From Ranitomeya imitator (lineage: Eukaryota): 64,000 bases of DNA. Below, one piece after another: positions 8,996-36,084 of this stretch. Where the stretch lies: assembly GCF_032444005.1 (NCBI RefSeq), contig NC_091285.1, positions 54,870,001-54,934,000 on the forward strand. The letters run 5' to 3'. Each line of letters opens with the position of its first letter. Positions within the stretch are counted from its first letter, which is position 1. The translations under genes were made by a program, and so were the position numbers. The notes below the pieces were generated by a model that had not been told where the DNA came from, searched no databases, and saw only the letters and a program-made list of their open reading frames with translations.

Positions 8996-9757
8996 GCTCT
9001 TCTCTGCAGACGTAGATTCACATATGTGTGGTTTGCTTCTAAATCAAAGGCTCAAACTATAAATCATCAAAAAAGCAAACATATTGGTAGACAGAAATAT
9101 GACAATAATAAAAGGGAGGATGTAAACGGTCTTGCGTTGTCTACGTTGGCATGACCATTGAGTCCAGTGATTAGTTGCAGCAATGACATGCTCTTTAGAT
9201 GTAACGTCACTGCTGCAGTCAGTCAATAAAGAAAGGAGAAGCACAAAGACATAACTCAACCTGTAGAGGGTAAGTAAGGCTGATTTTGGCATTTTTATCA
9301 AGCGAATACCACTGACTAGAAAAAAAAGGCTTATAACAAATAAACACTTTAATAATGAGACAGTAGGTGAACCCTCAAGTGTGCAGTACAATCCATAGCA
9401 GTACTGCCTAATTCTTTTCAAGACTTATAATCATCTAGGACAGGCAGACCAAAATATAGAATTGGTTACATAAAGTTTACATAAAAAGTATAAATCCAAA
9501 TTACTTCTGCAGATAAATGTAGAATAATAAAATGGCGTGCCTATTCTGTATCTGTATCTGTATCTAATAAATTAGAAGGCCTTAAAGTTTTTATAAAAGT
9601 ATATTTTGAACACTCATGCCTGTAAACCAAAAATGTAAAGTAAAACCTTCCATTAGATAAGAAACATGCTGCCGTAGAAATTAAAATAAATACAGAACAG
9701 AAAATGTTCTCTATCAACACAACTATAAAACACATATGAATAAGATTTGCTTCATAC

Positions 9758-12166
9758 CTGTGCAATGTTTCCACGACTCAGATCACTCCCAGCAGTAGTT
9801 TCCTCAGTGTCTATGAGATTCTCTGTGGGGACGTTCTGCACTGGTTTCAGATAAGCGATTTCATTCTGCTTGGAGTCCAGAGTCACACACACATCATATG
9901 AGAATGGGAAAGGTAAACTGGTATCACTGATCTCAGAAGGACATCCCAGGGTGAACTGAGGATACACGTTTCTGTTGTATGCCCCATAGCTTGTAGGGGT
10001 GCTTGATTTTCTGCATTTTAAGACTACAGTAATTAATACTGTTGCAATGAAAACAATTGATATAAGAGCGATGGAAACCACCAAGTAGAAAGTCACGTTA
10101 GAAGAAATATTGGAAATATTAGGTTGTTTCTTAATCTCTGGAACGACTTGTTGAAAGTTTTCAGCCACAACTAATTGTAATAAAACTGTACATGACAAAG
10201 ATGGGACCCCATTATCCTTCACCAGAACCACAATCTTTTGTCGCAAAATATCTGTGTCCTGAATGTCACGTCCAATTTTGATTTCACCAGTATATTTGCC
10301 AATGGTGAAAAAAGAAGGATCGGGAACTTGCAGTAAGTGATAGGAGAGCCAGGCGTTGTGTCCAGAGTCAGCGTCCACTGCAATCACTTTGGTGACTAGA
10401 TAACCTTTCTCAGCAGAGTGAGGAATAAACTCAAATAATGCTGATCCCTCAGTGTCTGGTGATGGGTAGAGGATCTTCGGAGCATTATCATTCTTATCAA
10501 TGATACATATCCTCACTGTGACATTACTGCTTAGAGGAGGAGATCCACTGTCTTTAGCCATCACCTGGAACTGAAATTCCCGCAACTGTTCATAGTCAAA
10601 TGATCTCTGGGCATAGAGAACTCCAGTTATAGAATTGATGGAAATATAAGATGTCACAGGAATATTGTCTACGTTGCTGTTTAGAATGCTGTAACTTATT
10701 TTCCCATTTTCATCACCATCAGGATCTGAAGCTTGGACATTTTGTATTGATGCACCTGGTTGGTTATTTTCTCCAATATACAGAATATATTTCATCTTCT
10801 CAAAAACTGGAGCATTGTCATTCACATCTGAGATATTGAGCTGAATGGTTTTGTTGGTGGACAGTGGAGGAGATCCGCCATCCATACATTGTATGGTGAC
10901 ATTGTAGGAAGGATTTCTTTCTCGGTCCATGCTAGCTGCAGTTACCAGTTTATAGTAAGTACTAGAAGATGGAATTAGCTGAAAAGCCAAAGTGTCTGAG
11001 ATGTGACAAACAACTTCACTATTCATTCCAGAGTCCAAGTCCTGGACATTCAGTAATGATAGGACAGTTCCTGGTGGTGAGTCCTCTGGAATTGATGCTG
11101 AGAGAGATGTGATAGTTATCTCTGGGGCATTGTCATTGACATCTATCACTTGTATTGTCACCTTACAATGGGTCACATATCCTCCACCATCTTTTGCTAC
11201 TACAGTGATTTCATAGGAATCCAATGTTTCATAATCCAAATTTCCTATTACTTTGATGTCCCCATTTAATGAGTCTATAGTAAATAACTGACGAGCATTG
11301 TCAGAAATATGACTAAACGAATAAGCTATTTCCGCATTGGACCCTTCATCTTCATCAGTTGCATTTAGATGAATTACAAGAGACCCAATAGCTGCATCTT
11401 CATGTAATCTTACACGATATGTGTCCTGATTAAATATCGGCAGGTTGTCATTAAAATCTTGTACAGTAATCCTGACTGTAGCAGTGCTTGATTTCTGTGG
11501 GTTACCTCCATCCAAGGCTGTTAATATTAACTCATAGTAACTCTGTTTCTCTCTGTCCAGTGACTTTTCTAGAATAATTTCTGGATATTTAATTCCATCT
11601 GTCGCTATTTTTTCTCCAAGGCCAAAGTTTTCATTGCCGCTCAGTGTATAACTCTGTATGGAGTTGGTGCCTAAGTCTGGATCTTGTGCGTTTCCTAAAG
11701 GAAAACGAGCCCCCGGAGAGGTAACTTCACTGATTTCTAAATCAAAATATTTGTCTGCAAATATCGGTGAGTTATCATTCACATCCTGGATTTCTATGGT
11801 GATTGTATAAAAAGTCAAAGGATTTTCTATTACAGCCTCCAGGTTTATAAAGCAGTTTGGTTTATTTCCACATAATGTTTCTCTGTCAATTCTGTCTGTT
11901 ACAAATAAGTCTCCATTTTCCAAATTAACACTGAAATATTGTTTGCTTTTTGCTTTTGAAATTAGTTGAAATTTTCTATTTGCAAATTCCTCCACATTTA
12001 ATCCCAGATCTTTTGCCACATTCCCAATTACAGATCCTTTCTTCATTTCTTCAAGTACTGAATATTGTAACTGGCCATAGGTATCAGTGATAAAGAAGAC
12101 AATAAAGGAAAATACCTGATAAATCTGCTCCCATTGTTTTCTTCTGTTTCTTGTTGTATGATTCAT
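9758..12166 (-). CDS. pcdhg: Clustered protocadherin gamma-type variable exon (complete)
   Basis: Six cadherin repeats, EC1 C-X5-C (CGNKPNC), VAVDADSGHNAWLSY and FYLVVSIALIS TM resembling gamma-B type. Ends in CAG|GTATGA donor at 9758/9757 (phase 0). Confidence 0.96.
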
Positions 12167-12390
12167 TGTCAGAAAGATGTGATATAAAAGTTTCCTTTGC
12201 TGTAATCCACAATAAGGGAATATTATTCCATAAAAAGGGAAATCACCAATGAAGATATTTATTGTAGTCCAGACTGCAGGGTGTCCTTCAGAAAAATCTG
12301 TGTTTTCTTATATCCGGCACTGTGAGGTTGTAATGATTTTAGTTGATTTTCTTTCTAGTCTATTTGGAAAAAATTTATAAGCAGTCTTAT

Positions 12391-12423
12391 ACTGCCACTT
12401 AGTGTTCAAAAATACTAACTGTT
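12391..12423 (-). promoter_or_regulatory. Pcdh promoter CSE, CTCF-like site
   Basis: Minus strand ACAGTTAG-TATTTTTGA-ACACTAAGTGGCAGT, 225 bp upstream of the ATG. Confidence 0.75.
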
Positions 12424-13362: not shown

Positions 13363-13973
13363 TGTCATGCTGGGTGAGGGAGCTAAGTGCACAACAACGG
13401 AAGAGGGTGAGGGAGCCCAAACACTAGGAAAGGAGGGGAGTGGAAACCCTTAGGCAGATCTGACAACACCCTGTCTGCCCTAAATGTCCCTAAATTGATT
13501 CCGCACCTTTTGCCGAACAGGAACCTAATACCTGAATGCCCCTCGCGATAGGCCCTGGATGGGGAGGGAACAGAGTGAGTGCTAGGCAGACCCCACTACC
13601 ACTAAAGACAATGAAGGATGACGAACGAGGGAATACACTTAGCTTGAGAGGACACAAGAGAGCTCATGTCAACAATCCTCATAAAAGCTCCAAGAAAAAA
13701 CTGGTCGACTTCTAGCACACACTTCCAACCAGACAGAGGAAAATAGAGCTAACATCAGCACCTAGCTGAAGGGACTTACGACATTTAAACATCCAACAAG
13801 GTTGTGTCAATAAGCAGCAGAAGGTGGAGGTCGCTGCTAGGTCCTAAAGAGAGGAAGATATCACTCCATAACAGGGATGCAAAAATCAAGAAGGTATTTT
13901 CAAAGCCAAGCGTAATAACCTTCTACAGTCAAATCCAAAATTACTGTCAGTTGCACCTGGCACACTCGTGACA
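13363..13973. mobile_element. Solo LTR-like element
   Basis: Starts TGTCATG and ends CGTGACA (inverted TG...CA termini), ~610 bp. No matching TSD seen. Confidence 0.5.
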
Positions 13974-14760
13974 TTATATTGACAAATAATACAGATAACA
14001 ATTATCACAATTATCATCTTATTACTCTGTTATTCAATTCTCATACGGACATAAACAGACAAAACACAAAATTCACTGGTGATGTGGATTCTTTGAACCG
14101 TGTTCACAGCCTTTTACCCAGAGGTATGGAGAGATCCAGAAGAGAGATTGCAAGTGCAAAACAGATTGTAAGAATAAAATTTCTCACCTTGCTGCAGCTG
14201 GTGTTTTGCATGTCCAATCTCCCAGGAAGCTCCCACATACGGATTCCGAATAGGCTGGTTACATGGCCCCACGTTGGGCGCCAAAACTGTCGTAGCTGTT
14301 TGCGTTTTGACCCAATGTCAGATGACAGATCACCAGTGAGGCCAAATCAGGAGGTTACACCCGACATTTTTCAAGTGCGCTTGGAGACAAAGGACACCTC
14401 ACACATATACTGTTAGCAAGTCACTTTTATCTGATGTAATGCAGCAAAAGGCAGTATTTTATACCATTTACAACAAATGTAACTCTTATGTAATTCATGT
14501 AGCCCCCACCATCACCCAGGGTCATACTGACCTTTATTCGTCACCACGTACCAAGAACATGTTGTGGCTGACTATTGAGAACATACAAGATAAGAAGTGT
14601 AGTCTCCTTGAAGCGGAGACCATCAGACTACTGCATAAACAGATTCTAGTAATTATAGCAATTAAAGGCAAAAGGCACTTAAAAGCAAACTATTAACCCT
14701 TCCATATCACCCCCCTTCTACAAGTGGCCTTCTGACACTCAGGACCTGGTTTCTCATCAT
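13974..14760 (-). mobile_element. ERV-like LTR (14288-14709) with tRNA-Lys PBS and leader
   Basis: Minus strand ...ACGACA-GTTT-TGGCGCCCAACGTGGGGC (PBS 14266-14283, the known Lys1,2 PBS sequence). LTR begins TGATATGG at 14709 right after the purine tract AGAAGGGGGG. Confidence 0.75.
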
Positions 14761-14789
14761 GAGAGGAATGGAACAAATGAACCAGCCTA

Positions 14790-15115
14790 GGGGCATTCAC
14801 CTCTGATGCTGAAACCTACATCCAACCTTCTGGACCTTAACCCCTACAGTGCACCAAGTACTGCAGGGAATGATGCTGAATATGAGAATAAACAATCTTT
14901 GAAATCTGGAACTCCAAATTAGCATCAACAATGATTGGGGGTGGTGGCAGGGGAGAGGACTCATGAGGTTCATCATACGTCTTGAGCAGAGACCTGTGGA
15001 ACACATTGTCAATTTTAAGGGCCAAAAAGCTGCAGGGTTAATGACGGCGGTTATTTTATAACCAATAAACCTAGATCCCAGTTTCCTGGAAGGGATCTTC
15101 AAGTAAGGCATAAAG
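14790..15115 (-). mobile_element. Gypsy/chromovirus pol C-terminal fragment (integrase GPY region plus chromodomain)
   Basis: KIPSRKLGSRFIG, IDNVFHRSLLK and LQYLVHCRG across frameshifted frames. Confidence 0.8.
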
Positions 15116-15119
15116 TCAG

Positions 15120-15592
15120 TTACTTCCTCGGTGTTCCGGTCACCGGCTACGCGCCACAGTAGGAAGTTGCCGTTCTCGGGGCACGACTCCTACTGGCTCT
15201 CCTTTGTGCTTGATCTCGTTTCTCACTTTCCACAATATCCTTCTCTTCTTGTCCTTTCTTAGGATACCGTTGCAAGGTAGTGCAGGTGCGGTTCCGTTGC
15301 TTTCTATTCGTTCTGCTAGGCCCCTGTCAGGAACCCACCCCTGACAGGTCCTCCCTGGACTCTCCCCAGGCTGCGTTCTGTTCTAACGTCCTATCTGACC
15401 CCTAGTTTTACCAGTGTGAGGAGTGGCCTAATACATAGTGCCTTTTGCTCCCCCTAGTGGCCAGAGTGTGAAGTGTAATGTGTGCTTGTGATACCTGGTC
15501 AGGTGAACTCCTTTAGTGCAATCAGACATAACATCACTCCCCTTAGTGGCAGAGCGACATTACTGCAACGACCAAGACTCTGGGGCGCTGCA
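15120..15592 (-). mobile_element. LTR fragment carrying two CTCF-consensus motifs
   Basis: Minus strand starts TGCAGCGCCCCAGAGTC at 15592. CTCF-like motifs at 15446-15464 and 15535-15567. Confidence 0.55.
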
Positions 15593-15596
15593 CTTT

Positions 15597-17528
15597 CACT
15601 TCACAGGTGTGCCCTGTCAGGTTTAATAAGTGGGATTTCTTGCCTTATAAATGGGGTTGGAATCATCAGTTGTGTTGTGCAGAAGTCTGGTGGATACACA
15701 GCTGATAGTCCTACTGAATAGACTGTTAGAATTTGCATTAAGGCAAGGAAAAAGCAGCTAAGTAAAGAAAAACGAGTGGCCATCATTACTTTAAGAAATG
15801 AAGGTCAGTCAGTCCAAAAAATTGGGAAAACTTTGAAAGTGCCCCCAAGTGCAGTGGCAAAAACCATCAAAGAAACTGGCTCACACGAGGACCGGCCCAA
15901 GACAGGAAGACCAAGAGTCACCTCTGCTTCTGAGGATAAGTTCATCCAAGTCACCAACCTTAGAAATGGCAGGTTAATAGCAGCTCAGATTAGAGACCAG
16001 GTCAATGCCACACAGAGTTCTAGCAGCAGACACATCTCTACAACAACTGTTAAGAGGAGACTTTGTGCATCAGGCCTTCATGGTAAAATAGCTGCTAGGA
16101 AATCACTGCTAAGGACAGACCACAAGCAGAAGAGACTTGTTTGGGCTAAAGAACTGTTATGACCTGGTGGTCAGGACAATAATGGACCTGGTGGTTAAGA
16201 GCACACGGAATGACCTGATAGTTACTGATAATAAGGACGAGCTCTGGGACGTGGGAACTCTGCTGACCGCAATCCCTAATCCTATCAAACACACTAGAAA
16301 TAGCCGTGGATTGCGCCTAACGCTCCCTATGCAACTCGGCACAGCCTAAGGAACTAGCTAGCCCTAAAGATAGAAAAATAAAGCCTACCTTGCCTCAGAG
16401 AAATTCCCCAAAGGAAAAGGCAGCCCCCCACATATAATGACTGTGAGTAAAGATGAAAATACAAACACAGAGATGAAATAGATTTAGCAAAGTGAGGCCC
16501 GACTTACTGAACAGACCGAGGATAGGAAAGGTTACTTTGCGGTCAGCACAAAAACCTACAAAAAGACCACGCAGAGGGCGCAAAAAGACCCTCCGCACCG
16601 ACTCACGGTGCGGAGGCGCTCCCTCTGCGTCCCAGAGCTTCCAGCAAGCAAGACAACAATAGAAATAGCAAGCTGGACAGAAAAATAGCAAACCAAAGAA
16701 ATACAAGCTGGAACTTAGCTTCTGCTGGGAAGACAGGTCACAAGAACGATCCAGGAGTGAACTAGACCAATACTGGAACATTGACAGGTGGCATGGAGCA
16801 AAGATCTAAGTGGAGTTAAATAGAGCAGCCCGCTAACGAATTAACCTCGTCACCTGTGGAAGGAAACTCAGAAACACCCACCAGAGGAAGTCCATGGACA
16901 GAACCAGCCGAAGTACCATTCATGACCACAGGAGGGAGCCCGACAACAGAATTCACAACAAAGAACACAAGGAATGGACATTAGACCAGTGGAAATCTGT
17001 GCTTTGGTCTGATGAGTCCAAATTTGAGATTTTTAGTTCCAACCACTGTGTCTTTGTGCAACGCAGAAAAGGTGAACAGATGGACTTTACATGCCTGGTT
17101 TCCACCGTGAAGCATGGAGGAGGAGGTGTGATGGTGTGGGAGTGCTTTGCTGTGACACTGTTGGAGATTTATTCAAAATTGAAGGCTTACTGAACCAGCA
17201 TGGCTACCACAGCATCTTGCAACGGCATGCTATTCCATCCGGTTTGCATTTAGTTGAACTATTATTTATTTTTCAACAGGACAATGACCCCAAACACACC
17301 TCCAGGCTGTGTAAGGGCTATTTGACCAAGAAGGAGAGCGATGGATTGCTACGCCAGAGAATCAAGAGAATGCCAAGAGTGTGCAAAGCAGTCATCAAAG
17401 CAAAAGTTGGCTACTTTGAAGACCCTAGAATATAAGACATATTTTCGGTTGTTTCACACTTTTTTGTTAAGTATATAATTCCACATGTGTTAATTCATAG
17501 TTTTGATGCCTTCAGTTTGAATTTACAA
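15597..17528 (+). mobile_element. Defective Tc1-family transposon split by a solo LTR
   Basis: Paired/HTH N-terminus (GRPRVTS...TVKRRL...RLVWAKE) resumes at 16961 as KEHKEWTLDQWKSVLWSDESKFE, then KHGGGGVMVW and FQQDNDPKH. The WPxxSPDLNPIE segment is deleted and both ends are truncated. Confidence 0.9.
16155..16960. mobile_element. Solo LTR (806 bp) inserted in the Tc1 transposase
   Basis: TGTTATGA...TCACAACA termini; AAGAAC duplicated at 16149-16154 and 16961-16966; removal restores WAKEHKEW. Confidence 0.88.
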
Positions 17529-17909
17529 TTCAATGCTCCCATTATGTTGTCTGTCTCTTAAGATTTAATAATTTAAATGTACTTTGTTTGTGGGACAACC
17601 CCTTTAAATTTGTTTTCATATTAGATGATAAGGAAATACATTTTCAATTGTACACATTTTTTTCAATAAAGATCAAAGTTGGCTGGTGACTTTGTCCAAG
17701 TTTTAAATTTTGTCCCCCTGTGTATTTGAGTTTGACATCACTGTGCTGTACCGATGCCTCTACCCTGTGCCATTCGTTGCACTGGTTGCCCATCCGCTAC
17801 AGAATTCAATATAAACTTATCACTCTCACCCACAATTGCTCCACAGTTTAGCAGCACTCTGCTTCTCCTTCCTCATCTCAGTCTACCACAAACTATCATG
17901 GTATATCCA

Positions 17910-21425: not shown

Positions 21426-21601
21426 TTAAAGTTCTTAAAAAGATATATTTTCAACATTCATTCCTGTAAACCAAAAATGTAAAGTGCAAACTTCCATTCG
21501 GTAAGAAACATGATGCTATAGAAATTAAAATAAATACAGAACAGAAAATATTCTCTGTCAATACAACTATAAAACGCATATGAATAAGCCTTGAATCATA
21601 C

Positions 21602-24025
21602 CTGAACAATGTTTCCAGGATTCAGATAATTGCTGGACGGACCATTCCCAGCAGTAGTTTCCTCGGTGTCTATGAGATTCTCTGTGGGAACGTTCTGCAC
21701 TGGTTTCAGATAAGCGATTTCATTCTGCTTGGAGTCCAGAGTCACACACACATCATATGAGAATGGGAAAGGTAAACTGGTATCACTGATCTCAGAAGGA
21801 CATCCCAGGGTGAACTGAGGATACACGTTTCTACTGTATGCCCCATAATTTGTAGGAGTACTTGATTTTCTGCATTTTAAGACTATGGTAATTAATACAG
21901 TTGCAATGAACACAATTGATATAAGAGCGATGGAAACCACCAAGTAGAAAGTTGCATTAGAAGAAGTATTAGAAATATTAGGTTGTTTCTTAATCTCTGG
22001 AACGACTTGTTGAAAGTTTTCAGCCACAACTAATTGTATTGAAACTGTACATGACAAAGATGAGACCCCATTATCCTTCACCAGAACCACAATTTTTTGT
22101 CTTAAGGTGTCTGTGTCCTGAATGTTACGTCCAATTTTGATTTCACCAGTATATTGGCCAATGGTGAAATAAGAAGGATCTGGTACTTGCAATAAGTGAT
22201 AGGAGAGCCAGGCGTTGTGTCCAGAGTCAGCGTCCACTGCAATCACTTTGGTGACTAGATAACCTTTCTCAGCAGAGTGAGGAATAAACTCAAATAATGC
22301 TGATCCCTCAGTGTCTGGTGATGGGTAGAGGATCTTCGGAGCATTATCATTCTTATCAATGATACATATCCTCACTGTGACATTACTGCTTAGAGGAGGA
22401 GATCCACTGTCTTTAGCCATCACCTGGAACTGAAATTCCCGCAACTGTTCATAGTCGAATGATCTCTGAGCATAGAGAACTCCAGATATTGAGTTTATGG
22501 AAATATAAGATGTCACAGGAATATCGTCTACGTTGCTGTTTAGAATGCTGTAACTTATTTTCCCATTTTCATCACCATCAGGATCTGAGGCTCGGACATT
22601 GTGTATTGATGTGCCTGGTTGGTTGTTTTCTCCAATATACAGAATATATTTCATCTTCTCAAAAACTGGAGCATTGTCATTCACATCTGAGATATTGAGC
22701 TGAATGGTTTTGTTGGTGGACAGTGGTGGAGATCCGCCATCCATACATTGTATGGTGACATTGTAGGAAGGATATCTTTCTCGGTCCATGCTAGCTGCAG
22801 TTACCAGTTTATAGTAAGTACTAGAAGATGGAATTAGCTGAAAAGCCAAAGTGCCTGAGATGTGACAAGCAACTTCACTATTCATCCCAGAGTCCAAGTC
22901 CTGGACATTCAGTAATGATACGACAGTTCCTGGTGGTGAGTCCTCTGGAATTGATGGTGAGAGAGATGTGATAGTTATTTCTGGGGCATTGTCATTGACA
23001 TCTATCACTTGTATTGTCACCTTACAATGGGTTACGTGACTTCCACCATCTTTTGCTACTACAGTCATTTCATAGGAATCCAGTGTTTCATAATCCAAAT
23101 TTCCAATTACTTTGATGTCCCCATTTACTGAGTCTATAGTAAATAACTGACGAGCATTGTCAGAAATATGACTAAAGGAATAAGCTATTTCAGCATTGGA
23201 CCCTTCATCTTCATCAGTTGCATTTAGATGAATTACAAGAGACCCAATAGCTGCATCTTCATGTAATCTTACACGATATGTGTCCTGATTAAACATCGGC
23301 AGGTTGTCATTAAAATCTTGGACAATAATCCTGACTGTAGCAGTGCTTGATTTCTGTGGGTTACCTCCATCCAAGGTTGTTAATATTAACTCATAGTAAC
23401 TCTGTTTCTCTCTGTCCAGAGACTTTTCTAGAATAATTTCTGGATATTTAATTCCATCTGTTGTAATTTTTTCTCCAAGGCCAAAGTTTTCATTGTCGCT
23501 CAGTGTATAACTTTGTATGGAGTTGGTGCCTAAGTCTGGATCTTGTGCATTTCCTAAAGCAAAACGAGTCCCCGGAGAGGTGAGCTCACTGATTTCTACT
23601 TCAAAATATTTGTCTGCGAATATCGGTGAGTTATCATTCACATCCTGGATTTCTATGGTGATTGTGTAAAAAGTCAAAGGATTTTCTATTACAGCTTCCA
23701 GGTTTATAAAGCAGTTTGGTTTATTTCCACATAACGTTTCTCTATCAATTCTGTCTGATACAAATAAGTCTCCATTTTCCAAATTAACACTGAAATATTG
23801 TTTGCTTTTTGCTTTTGAAATTAGTTGAAATTTTCTATTCGCAAATTCATCCACATTTAATCCCAGATCTTTTGCCACGTTCCCAATTACAGATCCTTTC
23901 TTCATTTCTTCAAGTACTGAATATTGTAGCTGTCCATAGGTATCAGTGATAAAGAAGAAAATAAAGGAAAATACCTTATAAATCTGCTGCCATTGTTTTC
24001 TTCTGTTTTCTTCTGTATGATTCAT
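21602..24025 (-). CDS. pcdhg: Clustered protocadherin gamma-type variable exon (complete)
   Basis: MNHTEENRRKQWQQ start at 24025 chosen by homology with the paralogs (an in-frame upstream ATG exists at 24058). EC1-6, TM, VCD; CAG|GTATGA donor at 21602/21601. Confidence 0.96.
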
Positions 24026-24226
24026 TGTCAAAAGAATGTGATATAAAAGTTTTCTCAACTGTAATCCACAATAAGGGAATATTATTCCATGAAAAGGGAA
24101 TTCCAGACTGCAGTGTGTCCTCTGTAAAAATAGTTGTGCTTTCCTATATCCGGTACTGTGAAATTGTAATGATTTTAGTTGATTTTCTTTCTCTTGAAGG
24201 TGGAAAAAATTGATAAGCAGTCTTAT

Positions 24227-24259
24227 ACTGCCGCTTAGTGTTCAAAAATACTAACTGCT
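24227..24259 (-). promoter_or_regulatory. Pcdh promoter CSE, CTCF-like site
   Basis: Same motif as 1863-1895 (ACACTAAGCGGCAGT), ~200 bp upstream of the ATG. Confidence 0.75.
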
Positions 24260-30701: not shown

Positions 30702-32251
30702 TTAATGGCTGCCGCTCTGCTGTTGTGCAGCCACAAAACGATCCAGCATCACTCCGTGCTGTTTGACTTGCTCAGCCAGTGTCCCCTGTGTCGCCATCAT
30801 CCTCCTGTGTGATGCCTGGAGGTCCTGTAATGTTGGGATTTCTATGGAGGGAATGGTAAAACTTAGTTTTGTACATGCATCAAACTATCATGTACGTGTT
30901 TGTTATTTAACAATTACGGTTTTCGGGTAAATCGGGTGAGGAAGAACTAAGGGACCACCCGGATCCTCTGGCATCACCGCCTAGGGAAAGATACAACACT
31001 TGATAGTACACGACAGTCCTATCCTTTACGAGTTGTATGGACCTATTTTTTAGTGCAATAATTACCGGGGGACATGACTTCACCCATGTCACGGAGTGAT
31101 GCTGGCGACCCTGTTGGTGACGAGCCTGTCGTTGACTCCTGCTGGGGCTCCGGGTCTGCTGGTGCTGGAGGGAAATAATTATTACATTATTACATATGAG
31201 GCGTGCGGAGCCGAGCCTGGTGTGTGTACGAGGCGTGCGGAGCCGAGCCTGGTGTGTACGAGGCGTGCGGAGCCGAGCCTGGTGTGTGTACGAGGCGTGC
31301 GGAGCCGAGCCTTGTGTGTGTACGAGGCGTGCGGAGCCGAGCCTGGTGTGTGTACGAGGCGTGCGGAGCCGAGCCTGGTGTGTGTACGAGGCGTGCGGAG
31401 CCGAGCCTGGTGTGTGTACGAGGCGTGCGGAGCCGAGCCTGGTGTGTGTACGAGGCGTGCGGAGCCGAGCCTGCTGTGTGTACGAGGCGTGCGGAGCCGA
31501 GCCTGGTGTGTGTACGAGGCGTGCGGAGCCGAGCCTGGTGTGTGTACGAGGCGTGCGGAGCCGAGCCTGGTGTGTACGAGGCGTGCGGAGCCGAGCCTGG
31601 TGTGTGTACGAGGCGTGCGGAGCCGGGCCTGGTGTGTGTACGAGGCGTGCGGAGGCGAGCCTGGTGTGTGTACGAGGCGTGCGGAGCCGAGCCTGGTGTG
31701 TGTACGAGGCGTGCGGAGCCGAGCCTGGTGTGTGTACGAGGCGTGCGGAGCCGAGCCTGGTGTGTACGAGGCGTGCGGAGCCGAGCCTGGTGTGTGTACG
31801 AGGCGTGCGGAGCCGAGCCTGGTGTGTGTACGAGGCGTGCGGAGCCGAGCCTGGTGTGTGTACGAGGCGTGCGGAGCCGAGCCTGGTGTGTACGAGGCGT
31901 GCGGAGCCGAGCCTGGTGTGTGTACGAGGCGTGCGGAGCCGAGCCTGGTGTGTGTACGAGGCGTGCGGAGCAACACTCACCACGATGTGGAAGGCTCTGT
32001 GACCGGATGCTGGCTAGGCGCTCACTGGACCTGTACTGCAGATCCGCCAGCTTCTTCCGGATCTGGGTACTGGAGCGCTGCACCCCAAATCTCTGGTCTA
32101 GGCCCCAACTGATCCTCCGCAGCACAGCCTGCTTATGGAGGACGGGATGCTCTTGGTGATTCTGACACCCATAATCACGGGCATCTAATTCAGTTATGAG
32201 GTAACGCACTTCTGCGTCACCCCAAGGCGTTGCACGACGCCTGGCCGCCAT
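30702..32251 (-). CDS. Predicted 4-exon, 184-aa Myb/SANT-like protein inside the Harbinger (exons 32251-31981, 31164-31084, 30980-30918, 30841-30702)
   Basis: Exon 1 RRRATPWGDAEVRYLI...K..VLRRI...FGVQRSSTQIRKKLADL has Myb/SANT-like spacing. Three GT-AG introns, all phase 1; the spliced 555 nt is open to TAA. Family assignment is by eye. Confidence 0.72.
31193..31970. repeat. CpG-rich 32-bp minisatellite (~24 copies, some 30-bp variants)
   Basis: Unit gtgtgtacgaggcgtgcggagccgagcctggt; it explains the six overlapping repetitive ORFs in the track. Confidence 0.97.
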
Positions 32252-32520
32252 TTTGCCGCCACTAGTGAAAAGCAAGGCCACAGCACTGTCCTTTCACCCG
32301 CCCACAACGCATCAGCGCCGTAAACCACGCCCACGACGCATCAACGTCACCGCGATTATTATAGACGACGCTGCTGCGTTCGCGAAGGAAGCGGTCTGTA
32401 TTGTAATCTCCAGATCACAACGAAGACGCTACTGCGTTCTGAATGTGACGCATTCTCAATACAACGTCTCCGGTTGCACTGGTAGACTGGAGTGTTGGTG
32501 GTTTCATGTATGGATATGTA

Positions 32521-33455: not shown

Positions 33456-34712
33456 CTATAAGTTCTGATGCTGCCAAGTAACAGCACCAGGACCGTTAAA
33501 ATATTGGCAGTAGTTGTCTCGGCAGGTCTTCGCATCGTGGGTGTTTCTGCCAGGTAACAATGGTTGAAGGCCTGCAATTGCGGGATCATTTGCGCGCCAT
33601 TCACCGAGCTGCACTTCCCCATTTAATAGGCCCACAGAGTCCATGAATCCAGGAGGACTATACGCCAAAGCATCGCGACGGCGAAGGAAGTTGTGAAGCA
33701 CACAACAAGCCAAAACAACAGAGTCTATCGATTCAAGCTTCATGTTAATAGGCGTGTGGAAAACTCTGAAGCGATTGGCCATGATACCGAAGGCATTTTC
33801 TACAACCCGACGTGCCCTTGACAAACGGTAATTGAAAATTCTTCTTTCCTCTGTTAGATTTTTTTGGGGGAACGGTTTGATAAGATTGGGATGAAGCGGG
33901 AAGGCCTCATCACCGACAAAAACAAAATTAAGGTTGCCTCTAGTCTCGGAGTTGGGAGGTAAGTGAAGGTCATAGTTGTTCAAACGCTCTCCAAAGAGTG
34001 TGTGCTCTAAAACGCCACCATCGGAAACCCTTCCATTCATGCCAACATCTACATTTATAAATTCATAATTCGCGTTAACAATGGCCATCAGGATGATGCT
34101 GAAATAGCCCTTATAATTAAAGAAGTAGGATCCGCTGTTCGGTGGTTGAGTGATCCGGACATGTTTCCCGTCCAAAGCCCCACCACAGTTTGGGAACTGC
34201 CAAAGCTGCTCAAAATCGGAGGCAATCTTTTTCCATTCCTCCTCCGTGTTGGGAAACTGCATGTAGCTACGTAGACTGTGGAAAATCGCATCACATGTCT
34301 CTGGAATTAGAACGCTGAGCAGGGTCCTTGAAATGGCTGAAGAAAAATGCAAGTCTTGCAGCGAGCGCCCGGTGGCCAGGAATCGCAGCGTGACTGCCAA
34401 TCTTTCATCGGCCGGGATGGCAGCACGCATCACTGTATCCTTCCGTTGAATCAGTGGAGTAATTCTTTCCAGTAAATGTTTGAAGGATTCCTCAGACATC
34501 CGCAGATAGTTGCGGAAATCATGAGGATTGTTATCCTGAAGCTCTCTTACAAGTTGCATGTGGGACAAATCAGACCTCTTCTGCAGCCATTCTCTGGTCC
34601 ACATGCGACGCTTTCGTTTAGAACGCCTCTCTTGCATCCGGGCCTCATCTTGACGCCGAGCTTCCTCAACCAGCAATGCAGCAAACACAACAGCACACTG
34701 CGCATTGTTCAT
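33456..34712 (-). CDS. Harbinger DDE transposase (HARBI1-like, DDE_Tnp_4 type), intact ORF of 418 aa
   Basis: GALDGKHV, GRVSDGGV, VGDEAFPL and FNYRLSRARRVVENAFG motifs with no stops. ATG at 34712 lies just after a pyrimidine-rich acceptor (tttcag, 34724). Confidence 0.95.
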   Translation of the reverse strand: MNNAQCAVVFAALLVEEARRQDEARMQERRSKRKRRMWTREWLQKRSDLSHMQLVRELQDNNPHDFRNYLRMSEESFKHLLERITPLIQRKDTVMRAAIPADERLAVTLRFLATGRSLQDLHFSSAISRTLLSVLIPETCDAIFHSLRSYMQFPNTEEEWKKIASDFEQLWQFPNCGGALDGKHVRITQPPNSGSYFFNYKGYFSIILMAIVNANYEFINVDVGMNGRVSDGGVLEHTLFGERLNNYDLHLPPNSETRGNLNFVFVGDEAFPLHPNLIKPFPQKNLTEERRIFNYRLSRARRVVENAFGIMANRFRVFHTPINMKLESIDSVVLACCVLHNFLRRRDALAYSPPGFMDSVGLLNGEVQLGEWRANDPAIAGLQPLLPGRNTHDAKTCRDNYCQYFNGPGAVTWQHQNL

Positions 34713-36084
34713 GATGCTGCACACTGAAACACATAAAAGAAAAAGAAGATAAATTTAATAAATAAAAAATTCAATTACGTTACCATGCATTACAGAAAAG
34801 ACCCCCTAAAATATCAGCCCGTGTAAAAGTATATCTACACAGATAGCAGACAAGCCCTCACTCCATCCCTCCACAGCAATGATAGCAGGAAATTATCTTT
34901 AGTTGCCCTGTATAAAAATTTAGGGGAAAATGAAAACGCAATTGCGACCACAAATACATACCATACACAATGTATAGTTGTCAGAAGAATCCTTGCAGAA
35001 CAGATTATCGAAATGGAAGAGGAGTCGCAGGCCGGAGAACTCTACAACGTTCTGCAATCCACCACGCGCTCAGGAACAAAGGACGGAAGGGCTATTATGT
35101 GTCGCCTTAAAGCATGGCCGCAAACCAATCAGAACGCAGTAGCGACCACCAATCGGAACAGAATGGGCGCGGAAAAGGCAACGCAAATGCACGCCTACAT
35201 GTCGGTGTCTGAGTCGTCAATGAGGTCGTTGGTAGGTGTCAAACAAAGCGATGTGTGTTCCCCAGCGGGACCTCAACGATCGAAAAATGGCCCAGGCCAT
35301 TCCGACATGACCAGCGATCTCACAGCAGGGGCCTGATCGCTGCTACGTGTCACACATAGCGAGATCGCTAGCGAGATCGCTGTTGCGTCACAAAACTTGT
35401 GACTCAGCAGCGATCTCGCTAGCGATCTCGCTATGTGTGACGGGGCCTTAACAGAACACCATAGCTGGCAGACCTGAAGGTTCTCATTTGACCTCCGGTT
35501 TCCATGGCTATCATTGGCAGACCATGATTATGTTATGAGGTGCCGATTGGGTGGGAGATGGAGTCGCCCCCTCCCCCTCATAGCCTTCTAAATGCTGCTA
35601 TTGCTATTGATTGCAACATTTAGGGGGTAAACAGCTGGGGACAGTGTGGCTTACAGTTACGTCATGAGTTGTGAAGTGGCTAAGTTCCCTAATTGGAGGA
35701 GTTAAAAAAAATTGGTTCTCATGCTTAGAAAAAAGGCACAAAAAGCAAGGGCTTCTGCTTTCATAAGTAACTCATTTCCCTACATGTTTTATCACAGGAG
35801 TATTTCTGCTGCATCAGTAGTCTTATGAGCTCATCATAAATCAAGCCAGTATATCTTCTAAATCACTGATATGATTTATGGTAAGCTCGGAAAGCTGGAT
35901 ATGTGGCAAAAACACTCAATCCTGGGATCCAATAGATAGTGAAATATGTTAACTTAGGCAGGAAAATGTTTTGCATCAGAAAATAGCAGATGTGAAACCC
36001 TGCTGCATCATCTGTACACTCACTTATCATATTAAGTGGTTTAAATGACTTACAGGCTCACAGGAAAAAAAAAATATATATATA

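What the first reader, a model, noticed from the sequence alone, without database searches (positions are those of the whole stretch)
15446..15567. LTR delivers two strong CTCF motifs into the Pcdh promoter array, in promoter orientation
Seen: minus strand CTGGCCACTAGGGGGAGCA (15464-15446) and TGCAGTAAT-GTCGCTCTG-CCACTAAGGGGAGTG (15567-15535). The second has the upstream TGCAGT module at the same 12-nt spacing as all five promoter sites. Both cores match the CTCF consensus better than the native sites, point the same way, and lie ~3.1 kb upstream of the 12391 CSE. Established: clustered Pcdh promoter choice depends on oriented CTCF sites and cohesin extrusion. Inference: TE-borne decoy or insulator sites could bias isoform choice on either side.
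Basis: partly seen in the sequence, partly recalled or inferred. Interest (0 to 1): 0.7.

Follow-up and report, generated by a model that had tools for sequence, protein, structure and literature searches.

The report
Frog retrotransposon carrying a CTCF motif
A broken piece of a very common jumping-gene end, which carries a predicted docking site for the chromosome-folding protein CTCF, has landed between two protocadherin promoters; other copies sit nearby facing both ways, so it is most likely a passenger rather than a purpose-built switch for neuron-identity genes.

Summary
Both motifs are at the stated coordinates. They lie in the 5' 495 bp (15098-15592, minus strand) of a ~1.2-kb LTR, truncated here. 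Site A (15463-15445) is the best CTCF core in the window (22.8 bits, recalled MA0139.1 matrix). Site B (9.0 bits, TGCAGT at 12 nt) is not better than the neighbouring promoter site (12.0).

Both are family traits: B's 31-mer occurs 1,754 times in the genome, A's 18-mer 6,455 times, and an A-type 16-mer 22,846 times. Placement is not special. The two arrays examined (1.04 Mb) hold 6 A-type sites against 4.0 expected, 2 in promoter orientation and 4 reversed. Inserted copies show no constraint on the motifs (3.2% vs 3.1% mismatch) and faster CpG decay.

What stands out is the family. Site A is the most conserved 14-nt window across 12 LTR copies 53-88% identical to this one, and conservation follows CTCF information content; B is not conserved. 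The element itself probably selected the site. Ectopic CTCF sites do insulate mammalian Pcdh promoters, in either orientation, so a local effect is possible (~15%) but untested. Verdict: TE-borne CTCF motif, new member of a known kind.

The parts
15098..15592 (-). 5' 495 bp of a ~1,197-bp LTR, starting at the TG terminus at 15592; the 3' ~700 bp is missing and there is no target-site duplication here
   Evidence: Alignment to 29 other loci ends at 15098/15592 for most copies; those copies continue ~700 bp further; solo LTR L004 is 1,197 bp
15445..15463 (-). Site A: near-consensus CTCF core, no upstream module, no CpG; LTR position ~130; the conserved motif of the LTR superfamily
   Evidence: 22.8 bits, top hit of the window; conserved across diverged lineages
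15534..15567 (-). Site B: TGCAGT module (15567-15562), 12-nt spacer, weak core (19-mer 15552-15534)
   Evidence: 9.0 bits; shared by most close copies; 15.4 bits in a sister subfamily; lost in distant lineages
12390..12423 (-). Native promoter CTCF/CSE-type site of the downstream exon (AACAGT + 12 nt + core)
   Evidence: 12.0 bits; same position and register in paralogous promoters
9752..12307 (-). Clustered protocadherin variable exon downstream of the LTR (stop-to-stop frame)
   Evidence: 851-aa frame; Pfam Cadherin_2, Cadherin x5, Cadherin_C_2
21596..24241 (-). Protocadherin variable exon upstream of the LTR
   Evidence: 881-aa frame; PF08266 hit
15594..17530 (+). Tc1-like DNA transposon (label from recall, no Pfam scan of this copy). 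Its left end is cut where the LTR begins, so it is the likely insertion target.
   Evidence: Other copies match from 15594; contigs of run X11 run on unlike the window before 15594
16154..16960 (+). A second, unrelated solo-LTR-like insertion inside the Tc1-like element, carrying a reverse-oriented CTCF-like motif at 16923-16941
   Evidence: 812-bp skip with 7 shared letters in contigs of 4 of 4 runs; motif 15.9 bits
13363..15102 (.). Older repeat (13363-13976 and 14709-15102) split by another repeat (13976-14709); it abuts the broken end of the LTR with ~5 bp overlap

Best explanation
This is the truncated 5' half of a high-copy LTR that carries a predicted CTCF site as a family trait and sits in the protocadherin array most likely as an unselected passenger. 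Shown: the LTR anatomy of the family (TG...CA ends, 4-bp target-site duplications, primer-binding site, polypurine tract); thousands of copies; loss of the 3' ~700 bp here; absence from the homologous sister interval; no enrichment or orientation bias in the arrays; and conservation of site A, but not site B, across diverged LTR lineages in the pattern of the CTCF matrix. Inferred: the element kept site A for its own benefit (a chromatin boundary or promoter-tuning site near the 5' end of the LTR, as CTCF sites act in the BLV LTRs). The copy entered a Tc1-like element after the tandem duplication of these exons and was later cut by a deletion. Like most TE-borne CTCF motifs, it is probably masked by H3K9me3-type chromatin in neurons, so it has little or no effect on promoter choice.
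For: Element: (TSD at two-LTR elements L031 and L228; at least 9 solo copies with matching 4-bp flanks). The PBS is complementary to a tRNA-like 3' end. Copy number: 1,754, 6,455 and 22,846 exact pattern matches against 0, 0 and 2 for reversed controls. Family trait: among 29 loci chosen by the LTR's 3' half, 22 aligned over both sites; 21 of 22 keep A >=15 bits and 20 of 22 keep TGCAGT at 12 nt. No enrichment: 6 A-type 16-mers in 1.04 Mb of arrays vs 4.0 expected (P=0.21), 2 forward and 4 reverse (P=0.69). Non-promoter hits >=15 bits: 7.2 and 7.4 per 100 kb unmasked in the arrays vs 8.5 in 40 random 10-kb stretches; forward:reverse 19:18 and 9:8. No constraint after insertion: mismatch 24/748 in motifs vs 305/9710 elsewhere, P=0.91; CpG sites mismatch 6.5% vs 2.7% for other C/G. 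The sister interval lacks the LTR. Element-level selection on A. Masking precedent: PMC9067402, PMC10762014.
Against: Site A has no CpG and outscores 48 of 49 promoter cores found in the array, so CTCF would be expected to bind it if it is accessible. This copy has 0 private changes in 34 motif positions vs 16 in 461 others, though that is uninformative (P=0.30). At the looser 12-bit threshold array 1 shows a forward excess, 53:29, P=0.01. Part of this comes from repeated words (7 copies of one, 5 of them in a 143-bp tandem at the array edge; 5 of another), and it is absent in array 2 (15:13). No chromatin data from this species were available; masking is extrapolated from mouse. Only about 1.04 Mb of the Pcdh arrays was scanned; 56.17-57.56 Mb was not.
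Confidence: 0.72

Rival explanations
1. Site A is occupied by CTCF/cohesin in neurons and works as an accidental insulator or decoy anchor. It would compete with the weak native promoter sites for the downstream enhancer and lower the use of exons 5' of it; the reversed copies 21 and 34 kb further 3' would add to this.
For: Single or tandem forward sites inserted between the human PCDHA cluster and its enhancer, and reverse sites inserted at places in the cluster, reduced enhancer contacts; the forward insertions also lowered expression (PMC7087399 passages). Site A is 22.8 bits against -2.6 to 12.0 for the 17 recognisable promoter sites of this 5' exon group. No CpG in the core. It is 3.1 kb from a promoter.
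Against: No occupancy data. The site is buried in a nest of repeats. SETDB1/H3K9me3 represses CTCF occupancy at mouse Pcdh-gamma in neurons and at TE-borne motifs. The array tolerates background densities of such motifs in both orientations, which suggests that most are inert.
Confidence: 0.15
2. The insertion has been exapted and is kept by selection as a tuned, promoter-oriented pair of CTCF sites.
For: The deletion spared the part of the LTR with both motifs, and neither motif carries a private change. B has promoter-like spacing.
Against: The motifs are identical to the family's commonest state. Orientation in the arrays is 2 forward, 4 reverse. The copy is young, 98-99% identical to other copies over 216 bp, and absent from the sister interval. 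Zero private changes is expected 30% of the time.
Confidence: 0.03
3. Site A is conserved in the LTR lineage for another reason, such as a different GC-box or zinc-finger factor or a structural signal, and only resembles the CTCF motif.
For: The invariant part includes a G-run that is also fixed at low-information matrix positions. There is no upstream module. Binding was not tested, and the matrix is mammalian and recalled.
Against: Conservation follows CTCF information content (Spearman 0.63, P=0.004; 0.51, P=0.027 in the 10 copies found by their terminus alone). The variable positions are matrix positions 7-8 and 18-19. The 16 distinct changes cost 1.07 bits on average vs 3.62 for all possible changes (0 of 20,000 permutations as mild). 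CTCF is described as highly conserved across animals (PMC4840295).
Confidence: 0.1

Closest known systems
TE-borne CTCF sites of mammals (rodent B2 SINEs, ERV LTRs; PMC7156512 abstract and section 7, PMC9067402 section 3)
   Same: A high-copy retroelement carries a near-consensus CTCF motif and spreads it by the thousands; many copies are expected to be masked by H3K9me3 and to decay.
   Different: Here it is an LTR family in a 6-Gb genome that is probably a frog's (inferred). Binding is unshown. The motif is conserved among element lineages down to ~53% identity, which points to selection on the element before any host co-option.
CTCF sites of the bovine leukemia virus provirus (PMC8989512, abstract)
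   Same: Conserved CTCF motifs in an LTR-bearing element that tune LTR promoter activity and loop to host chromatin.
   Different: BLV is an exogenous retrovirus with shown occupancy. This is an endogenous family, non-autonomous in the two-LTR copies seen, and this copy has lost its 3' 700 bp, including the AATAAA at LTR position 638.
Clustered-Pcdh promoter CTCF sites (CSE) and ectopic CBS insertions (PMC7087399, PMC7811963, PMC4978886; passages)
   Same: Same orientation as the promoter sites; B has the upstream module at the same 12-nt spacing.
   Different: Not about 200 bp upstream of an exon, not shared with paralogous intervals, TE-derived, and accompanied by reversed copies. The experiments inserted sites into cultured human cells.

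Membership tests
LTR retroelement LTR | TG...CA termini and short target-site duplication | tested here: met
   Family copies start TG and end CA, with 4-bp TSDs at solo copies and two-LTR elements. The window copy keeps only the 5' terminus.
LTR retroelement LTR | Paired direct repeats with PBS after the 5' LTR and PPT before the 3' LTR | tested here: met
   L031 (LTRs 95.9% identical) and L228 (95.0%). The PBS is complementary to a tRNA-like 3' end with CCA and a CGA anticodon-like loop; ARAGORN called 0 genes in those 3 loci, so Ser(CGA) is a recalled assignment.
Ty3/Gypsy (Metaviridae) rather than ERV or other LTR class | Own gag-pol with RT-RNaseH-integrase order | tested here: inconclusive
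   The pol frames found between LTR pairs belong to nested elements: a chromovirus with its own LTRs in L178, and an endonuclease-RT (LINE-type) frame in L228. L233's gag-pol shares no sequence with the family's internal region. The family's own 1.6-2-kb interior has no Pfam hit. No autonomous parent was found.
CTCF binding site | Core motif match | tested here: met
   A 22.8 bits; B 9.0 bits, weak (recalled matrix).
CTCF binding site | Upstream (ZF9-11) module at canonical spacing | tested here: inconclusive
   Present for B at the spacing used by the promoters, absent for A. The module is found at 15-25% of sites (PMC4840295), so it is not required. That TGCAGT is that module is recalled.
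CTCF binding site | Occupancy by CTCF/cohesin in vivo | not testable with these tools
   No ChIP or CUT&Tag data; the runs found were contigs.
Pcdh promoter CSE | About 200 bp upstream of a variable-exon start, shared across paralogous promoters | tested here: not met
   3.1 kb beyond the real promoter site; absent from the homologous sister interval.
Exapted TE-derived insulator | Locus-specific constraint or enrichment | tested here: not met
   No enrichment, no orientation bias at >=15 bits, and no motif constraint among inserted copies. Power for the single copy is low (P=0.30).

The most novel reading that the evidence does not exclude
This LTR superfamily is an amphibian counterpart of the rodent B2 SINE. 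It has kept a CTCF site under its own selection across lineages as little as 53% identical and has seeded over 20,000 near-consensus sites. The copies inside the protocadherin arrays, stronger than the neighbouring native promoter sites and facing both ways, are bound in neurons and bias which isoforms are chosen, so that transposon insertions reshape the neuronal identity code between frog lineages.
Probability: 0.15. Interest if true: 0.65.

Novelty: new member of a known kind. Interest (0 to 1): 0.3.

Why it matters
At the locus level it matters little unless occupancy is shown, because one such insertion is what background density predicts. At the family level, a CTCF motif conserved among retroelement lineages and present in over 20,000 copies would be a large non-mammalian supply of potential loop anchors in a giant genome. 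It makes two questions testable: how such genomes mask TE-borne CTCF sites, and whether natural insertions in a Pcdh array skew stochastic promoter choice as engineered ones do in human cells.

Tried and rejected
Classing the family as a chromovirus from the pol in L178: rejected. That pol has its own LTRs, and the LTR pair there is a duplication without a PBS. L228's RT is a nested LINE-type frame.

Finding the priming tRNA gene: the Rfam tRNA search was uninformative and ARAGORN found 0 genes in 3 loci.

Presence/absence of this insertion in other animals: contigs of 4 runs were laid. Only X1, possibly the assembly's own sample, holds unique flank, and no listed piece bridges the LTR junctions. 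X4 and X8 (organisms B, C) cover the LTR family and X11 (organism D) does not cover 15196-15557 at 92% likeness; contig gaps prove nothing.

Reverse-oriented enhancer sites in 180 kb downstream of the array: none stood out; the hits >=16 bits include words seen elsewhere in repeats.

Further copies of the most distant lineage: the search gave 2,548 candidates but their 5' ends could not be read, so that lineage rests on single copies. The remaining 200 kb of array 2 was not obtained.

Earlier findings of the scan: none. Jiang et al. 2017 was not held and is known here only through PMC7811963 and PMC10762014.

Two searches for a printed TGCAGT spacing rule gave nothing specific.

Full report
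Setting. The window is G000:C4:54,870,001-54,934,000 of a 5.96-Gb assembly. It holds five clustered-protocadherin variable exons on the minus strand. PF08266 gives 137 hits among 150 scored of 164 candidates; 123 lie on C4 between 54.31 and 57.56 Mb. The window is near the 5' end of the most 3' array (54.31-54.98 Mb). That the animal is a frog and the array gamma-type is my inference from genome size, repeat content and the parallel with the X. tropicalis layout (PMC4978886; passages and section 18 read); I did not test it.

Observation. Both strings are present as written. I scored them with JASPAR MA0139.1, typed from recall. Site A (19-mer 15463-15445) scores 22.8 bits, the best in the window. 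Site B (15552-15534) scores 9.0. The five native promoter sites score 7.8, 12.0, 7.8, 9.0 and 0.6. So only A beats the native sites. The 12-nt spacing holds at all five promoters, but the hexamer is TGCAGT in 2 of 5, and A has none. In 100 Markov simulations of the window, 0 reached 22.8 bits and 3 produced a B-type composite; hits >=9 bits averaged 12 against 18 observed.

What carries them. A search with 15380-15595 gave 1,646 candidates; the 40 scored were 97-100% identical. Similarity to most of the 29 other loci spans 15098-15592. Those copies run on ~700 bp to a CA end; solo copies have 4-bp target-site duplications, and others are followed by a primer-binding site. Solo LTR L004 is 1,197 bp. 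L031 and L228 are two-LTR elements with TSD, PBS and polypurine tract. The PBS is complementary to a tRNA-like 3' end found 6 times in the genome, but ARAGORN called no gene in the 3 loci examined. The family's own interior is 1.6-2 kb without a Pfam match, and the pol frames that I found between LTR pairs belong to nested or unrelated elements, so the class is open. The window's copy starts where a Tc1-like element breaks off and ends against an older repeat. I infer insertion into the Tc1 end followed by a deletion. The homologous interval between the next two exons matches at 76-87% on both sides and lacks the LTR, so the insertion probably post-dates the exon duplication.

Family trait. 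B's 31-mer occurs 1,754 times (870 forward, 884 reverse; reversed control 0). A's 18-mer occurs 6,455 times (control 0), and a looser A-type 16-mer 22,846 times (control 2). To avoid selecting on the motifs I fetched 29 loci by the LTR's 3' half. Of these, 22 aligned over both sites (7 did not and were dropped); 21 of 22 keep A >=15 bits, 17 of 22 keep B at ~9 bits, and 20 of 22 keep TGCAGT at 12 nt. The window's sites equal the commonest state.

Is the placement special? I read 704 kb of array 1, 340 kb of array 2, 180 kb downstream and 40 random 10-kb stretches. Four close copies with a high-scoring A lie in array 1: this one forward and three reversed, two of them at window -5,348 and -18,520. 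One of the reversed copies keeps B intact and one has a deletion in it. The A-type 16-mer occurs 5 times in array 1 and once in array 2 against 4.0 expected (P=0.21), 2 forward and 4 reverse (P=0.69). With exons and promoters masked, hits >=15 bits are 7.2 and 7.4 per 100 kb, forward:reverse 19:18 and 9:8, against 8.5 per 100 kb in the controls. Against my reading: at >=12 bits array 1 has 53 forward to 29 reverse (P=0.01) and the downstream 180 kb 25 to 10 (P=0.02), while array 2 has 15 to 13. Repeated words explain part of the array-1 excess. Among 22 inserted copies, motif positions mismatch at 3.2% and others at 3.1% (P=0.91). CpG positions mismatch at 6.5% against 2.7%, as expected of germline-methylated repeats. 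This copy has 0 private changes in 34 motif positions and 16 in 461 others (P=0.30).

The real signal is in the element's history. A pattern for the LTR's 5' terminus found 14 starts in 1.62 Mb of sequence not chosen for the family. One (L144) is spurious and was dropped. Of the other 13, 12 have a core >=15 bits at position ~121-131, and 6 have B >=9 bits. I aligned 12 natural copies, 53-88% identical to the window's copy; two of them were noticed through site A itself. The A core is the most conserved 14-nt window (1 of 161). Its conservation follows matrix information content (Spearman 0.63, P=0.004), while B's does not (-0.32, P=0.18). The 16 distinct changes cost 1.07 bits on average against 3.62 for all possible changes. 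For the four most distant copies, neutral retention of >=15 bits has P=0.003-0.008 each. Without the two motif-ascertained copies, 5 of 8 high-information positions are invariant against 26 of 137 background (P=0.012; Spearman 0.51, P=0.027). With five deep lineages it is 8 of 8 against 43 of 137 (P=0.0002). The copies are related, so these P values are optimistic. A sister subfamily (19 of 20 loci aligned over both sites) has a better B, 15.4 bits or more in 18 of 19, so B may be functional in the younger lineages. By my reading, at least 9 of the 10 A-type 16-mers in the sequence examined lie in this superfamily.

Mechanism. Inferred: active elements kept site A as a boundary or promoter-tuning site, as CTCF does for the BLV LTRs (PMC8989512, abstract). 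Inserted copies then drift. In mouse, H3K9me3 masks CTCF motifs in B2 repeats (PMC9067402, section 3), does so independently of DNA methylation, and represses CTCF occupancy at Pcdh-gamma in neurons (PMC10762014, passages). That fits CpG-free cores in a nest of repeats. If site A is nonetheless bound, it could insulate: ectopic forward or reverse sites did so at human PCDHA, independently of orientation (PMC7087399, passages; PMC7811963, passages). I put a measurable local effect at about 15% and selected exaptation at about 3%.

Known and new. TE-borne CTCF sites are well established in mammals (PMC7156512, abstract and section 7). Four searches (listings only) showed no paper on a CTCF motif in an amphibian LTR family or on a natural TE insertion in a Pcdh array; the library lacks most subscription journals. 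PMC4840295 was read as passages. No supplements were read and figures are not held; Figure 4 of PMC4978886 bears on the promoter motifs. Verdict: new member of a known kind; interest 0.3.

Noticed in passing
G000:C4:54.31-54.55 Mb (L049-L073): The 29 most 3' exons found in this array have strong forward CTCF cores (12.1-22.9 bits, 28 of 29 >=14.5) without a CGCT box, most with a TGCAGT-like hexamer at 12 nt, while the 17 recognisable sites of the 5' group score -2.6 to 12.0. The strong group may be the 'novel 13-bp motif' of X. tropicalis gamma2 15-36 (PMC4978886), which would then be a CTCF core; the paper's logo could not be seen.
   Followed up: partly
window 16154-16960; also window -16107 to -15326 (L035): A second LTR-like family carries its own CTCF-like motifs (15.7-21.9 bits); the copy 1.4 kb from site B has a reverse-oriented one at 16923.
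   Followed up: no
G000:C4:55084970-55085218: A single protocadherin exon on the + strand, inverted relative to the other 122 hits of the cluster, in the gap between two arrays (847-aa open frame).
   Followed up: no
window 33456-34754 (-): Open 432-aa frame with DDE_Tnp_4 (Harbinger/PIF-type by recall) transposase domain between two exons.
   Followed up: partly
window 14267-14283 (-): PBS-like 17-mer (tRNA-Lys type by recall) inside the repeat 13976-14709, which gave 2,725 candidates in the genome.
   Followed up: partly
window 30907-32293: GC-rich (64%) stretch with long open frames on both strands, probably a tandem repeat.
   Followed up: no
G000:C1:39.0-39.8 Mb: About ten exact copies of the site-B 31-mer within 0.6 Mb, suggesting tandem segmental duplication of a block that holds the LTR.
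   Followed up: no
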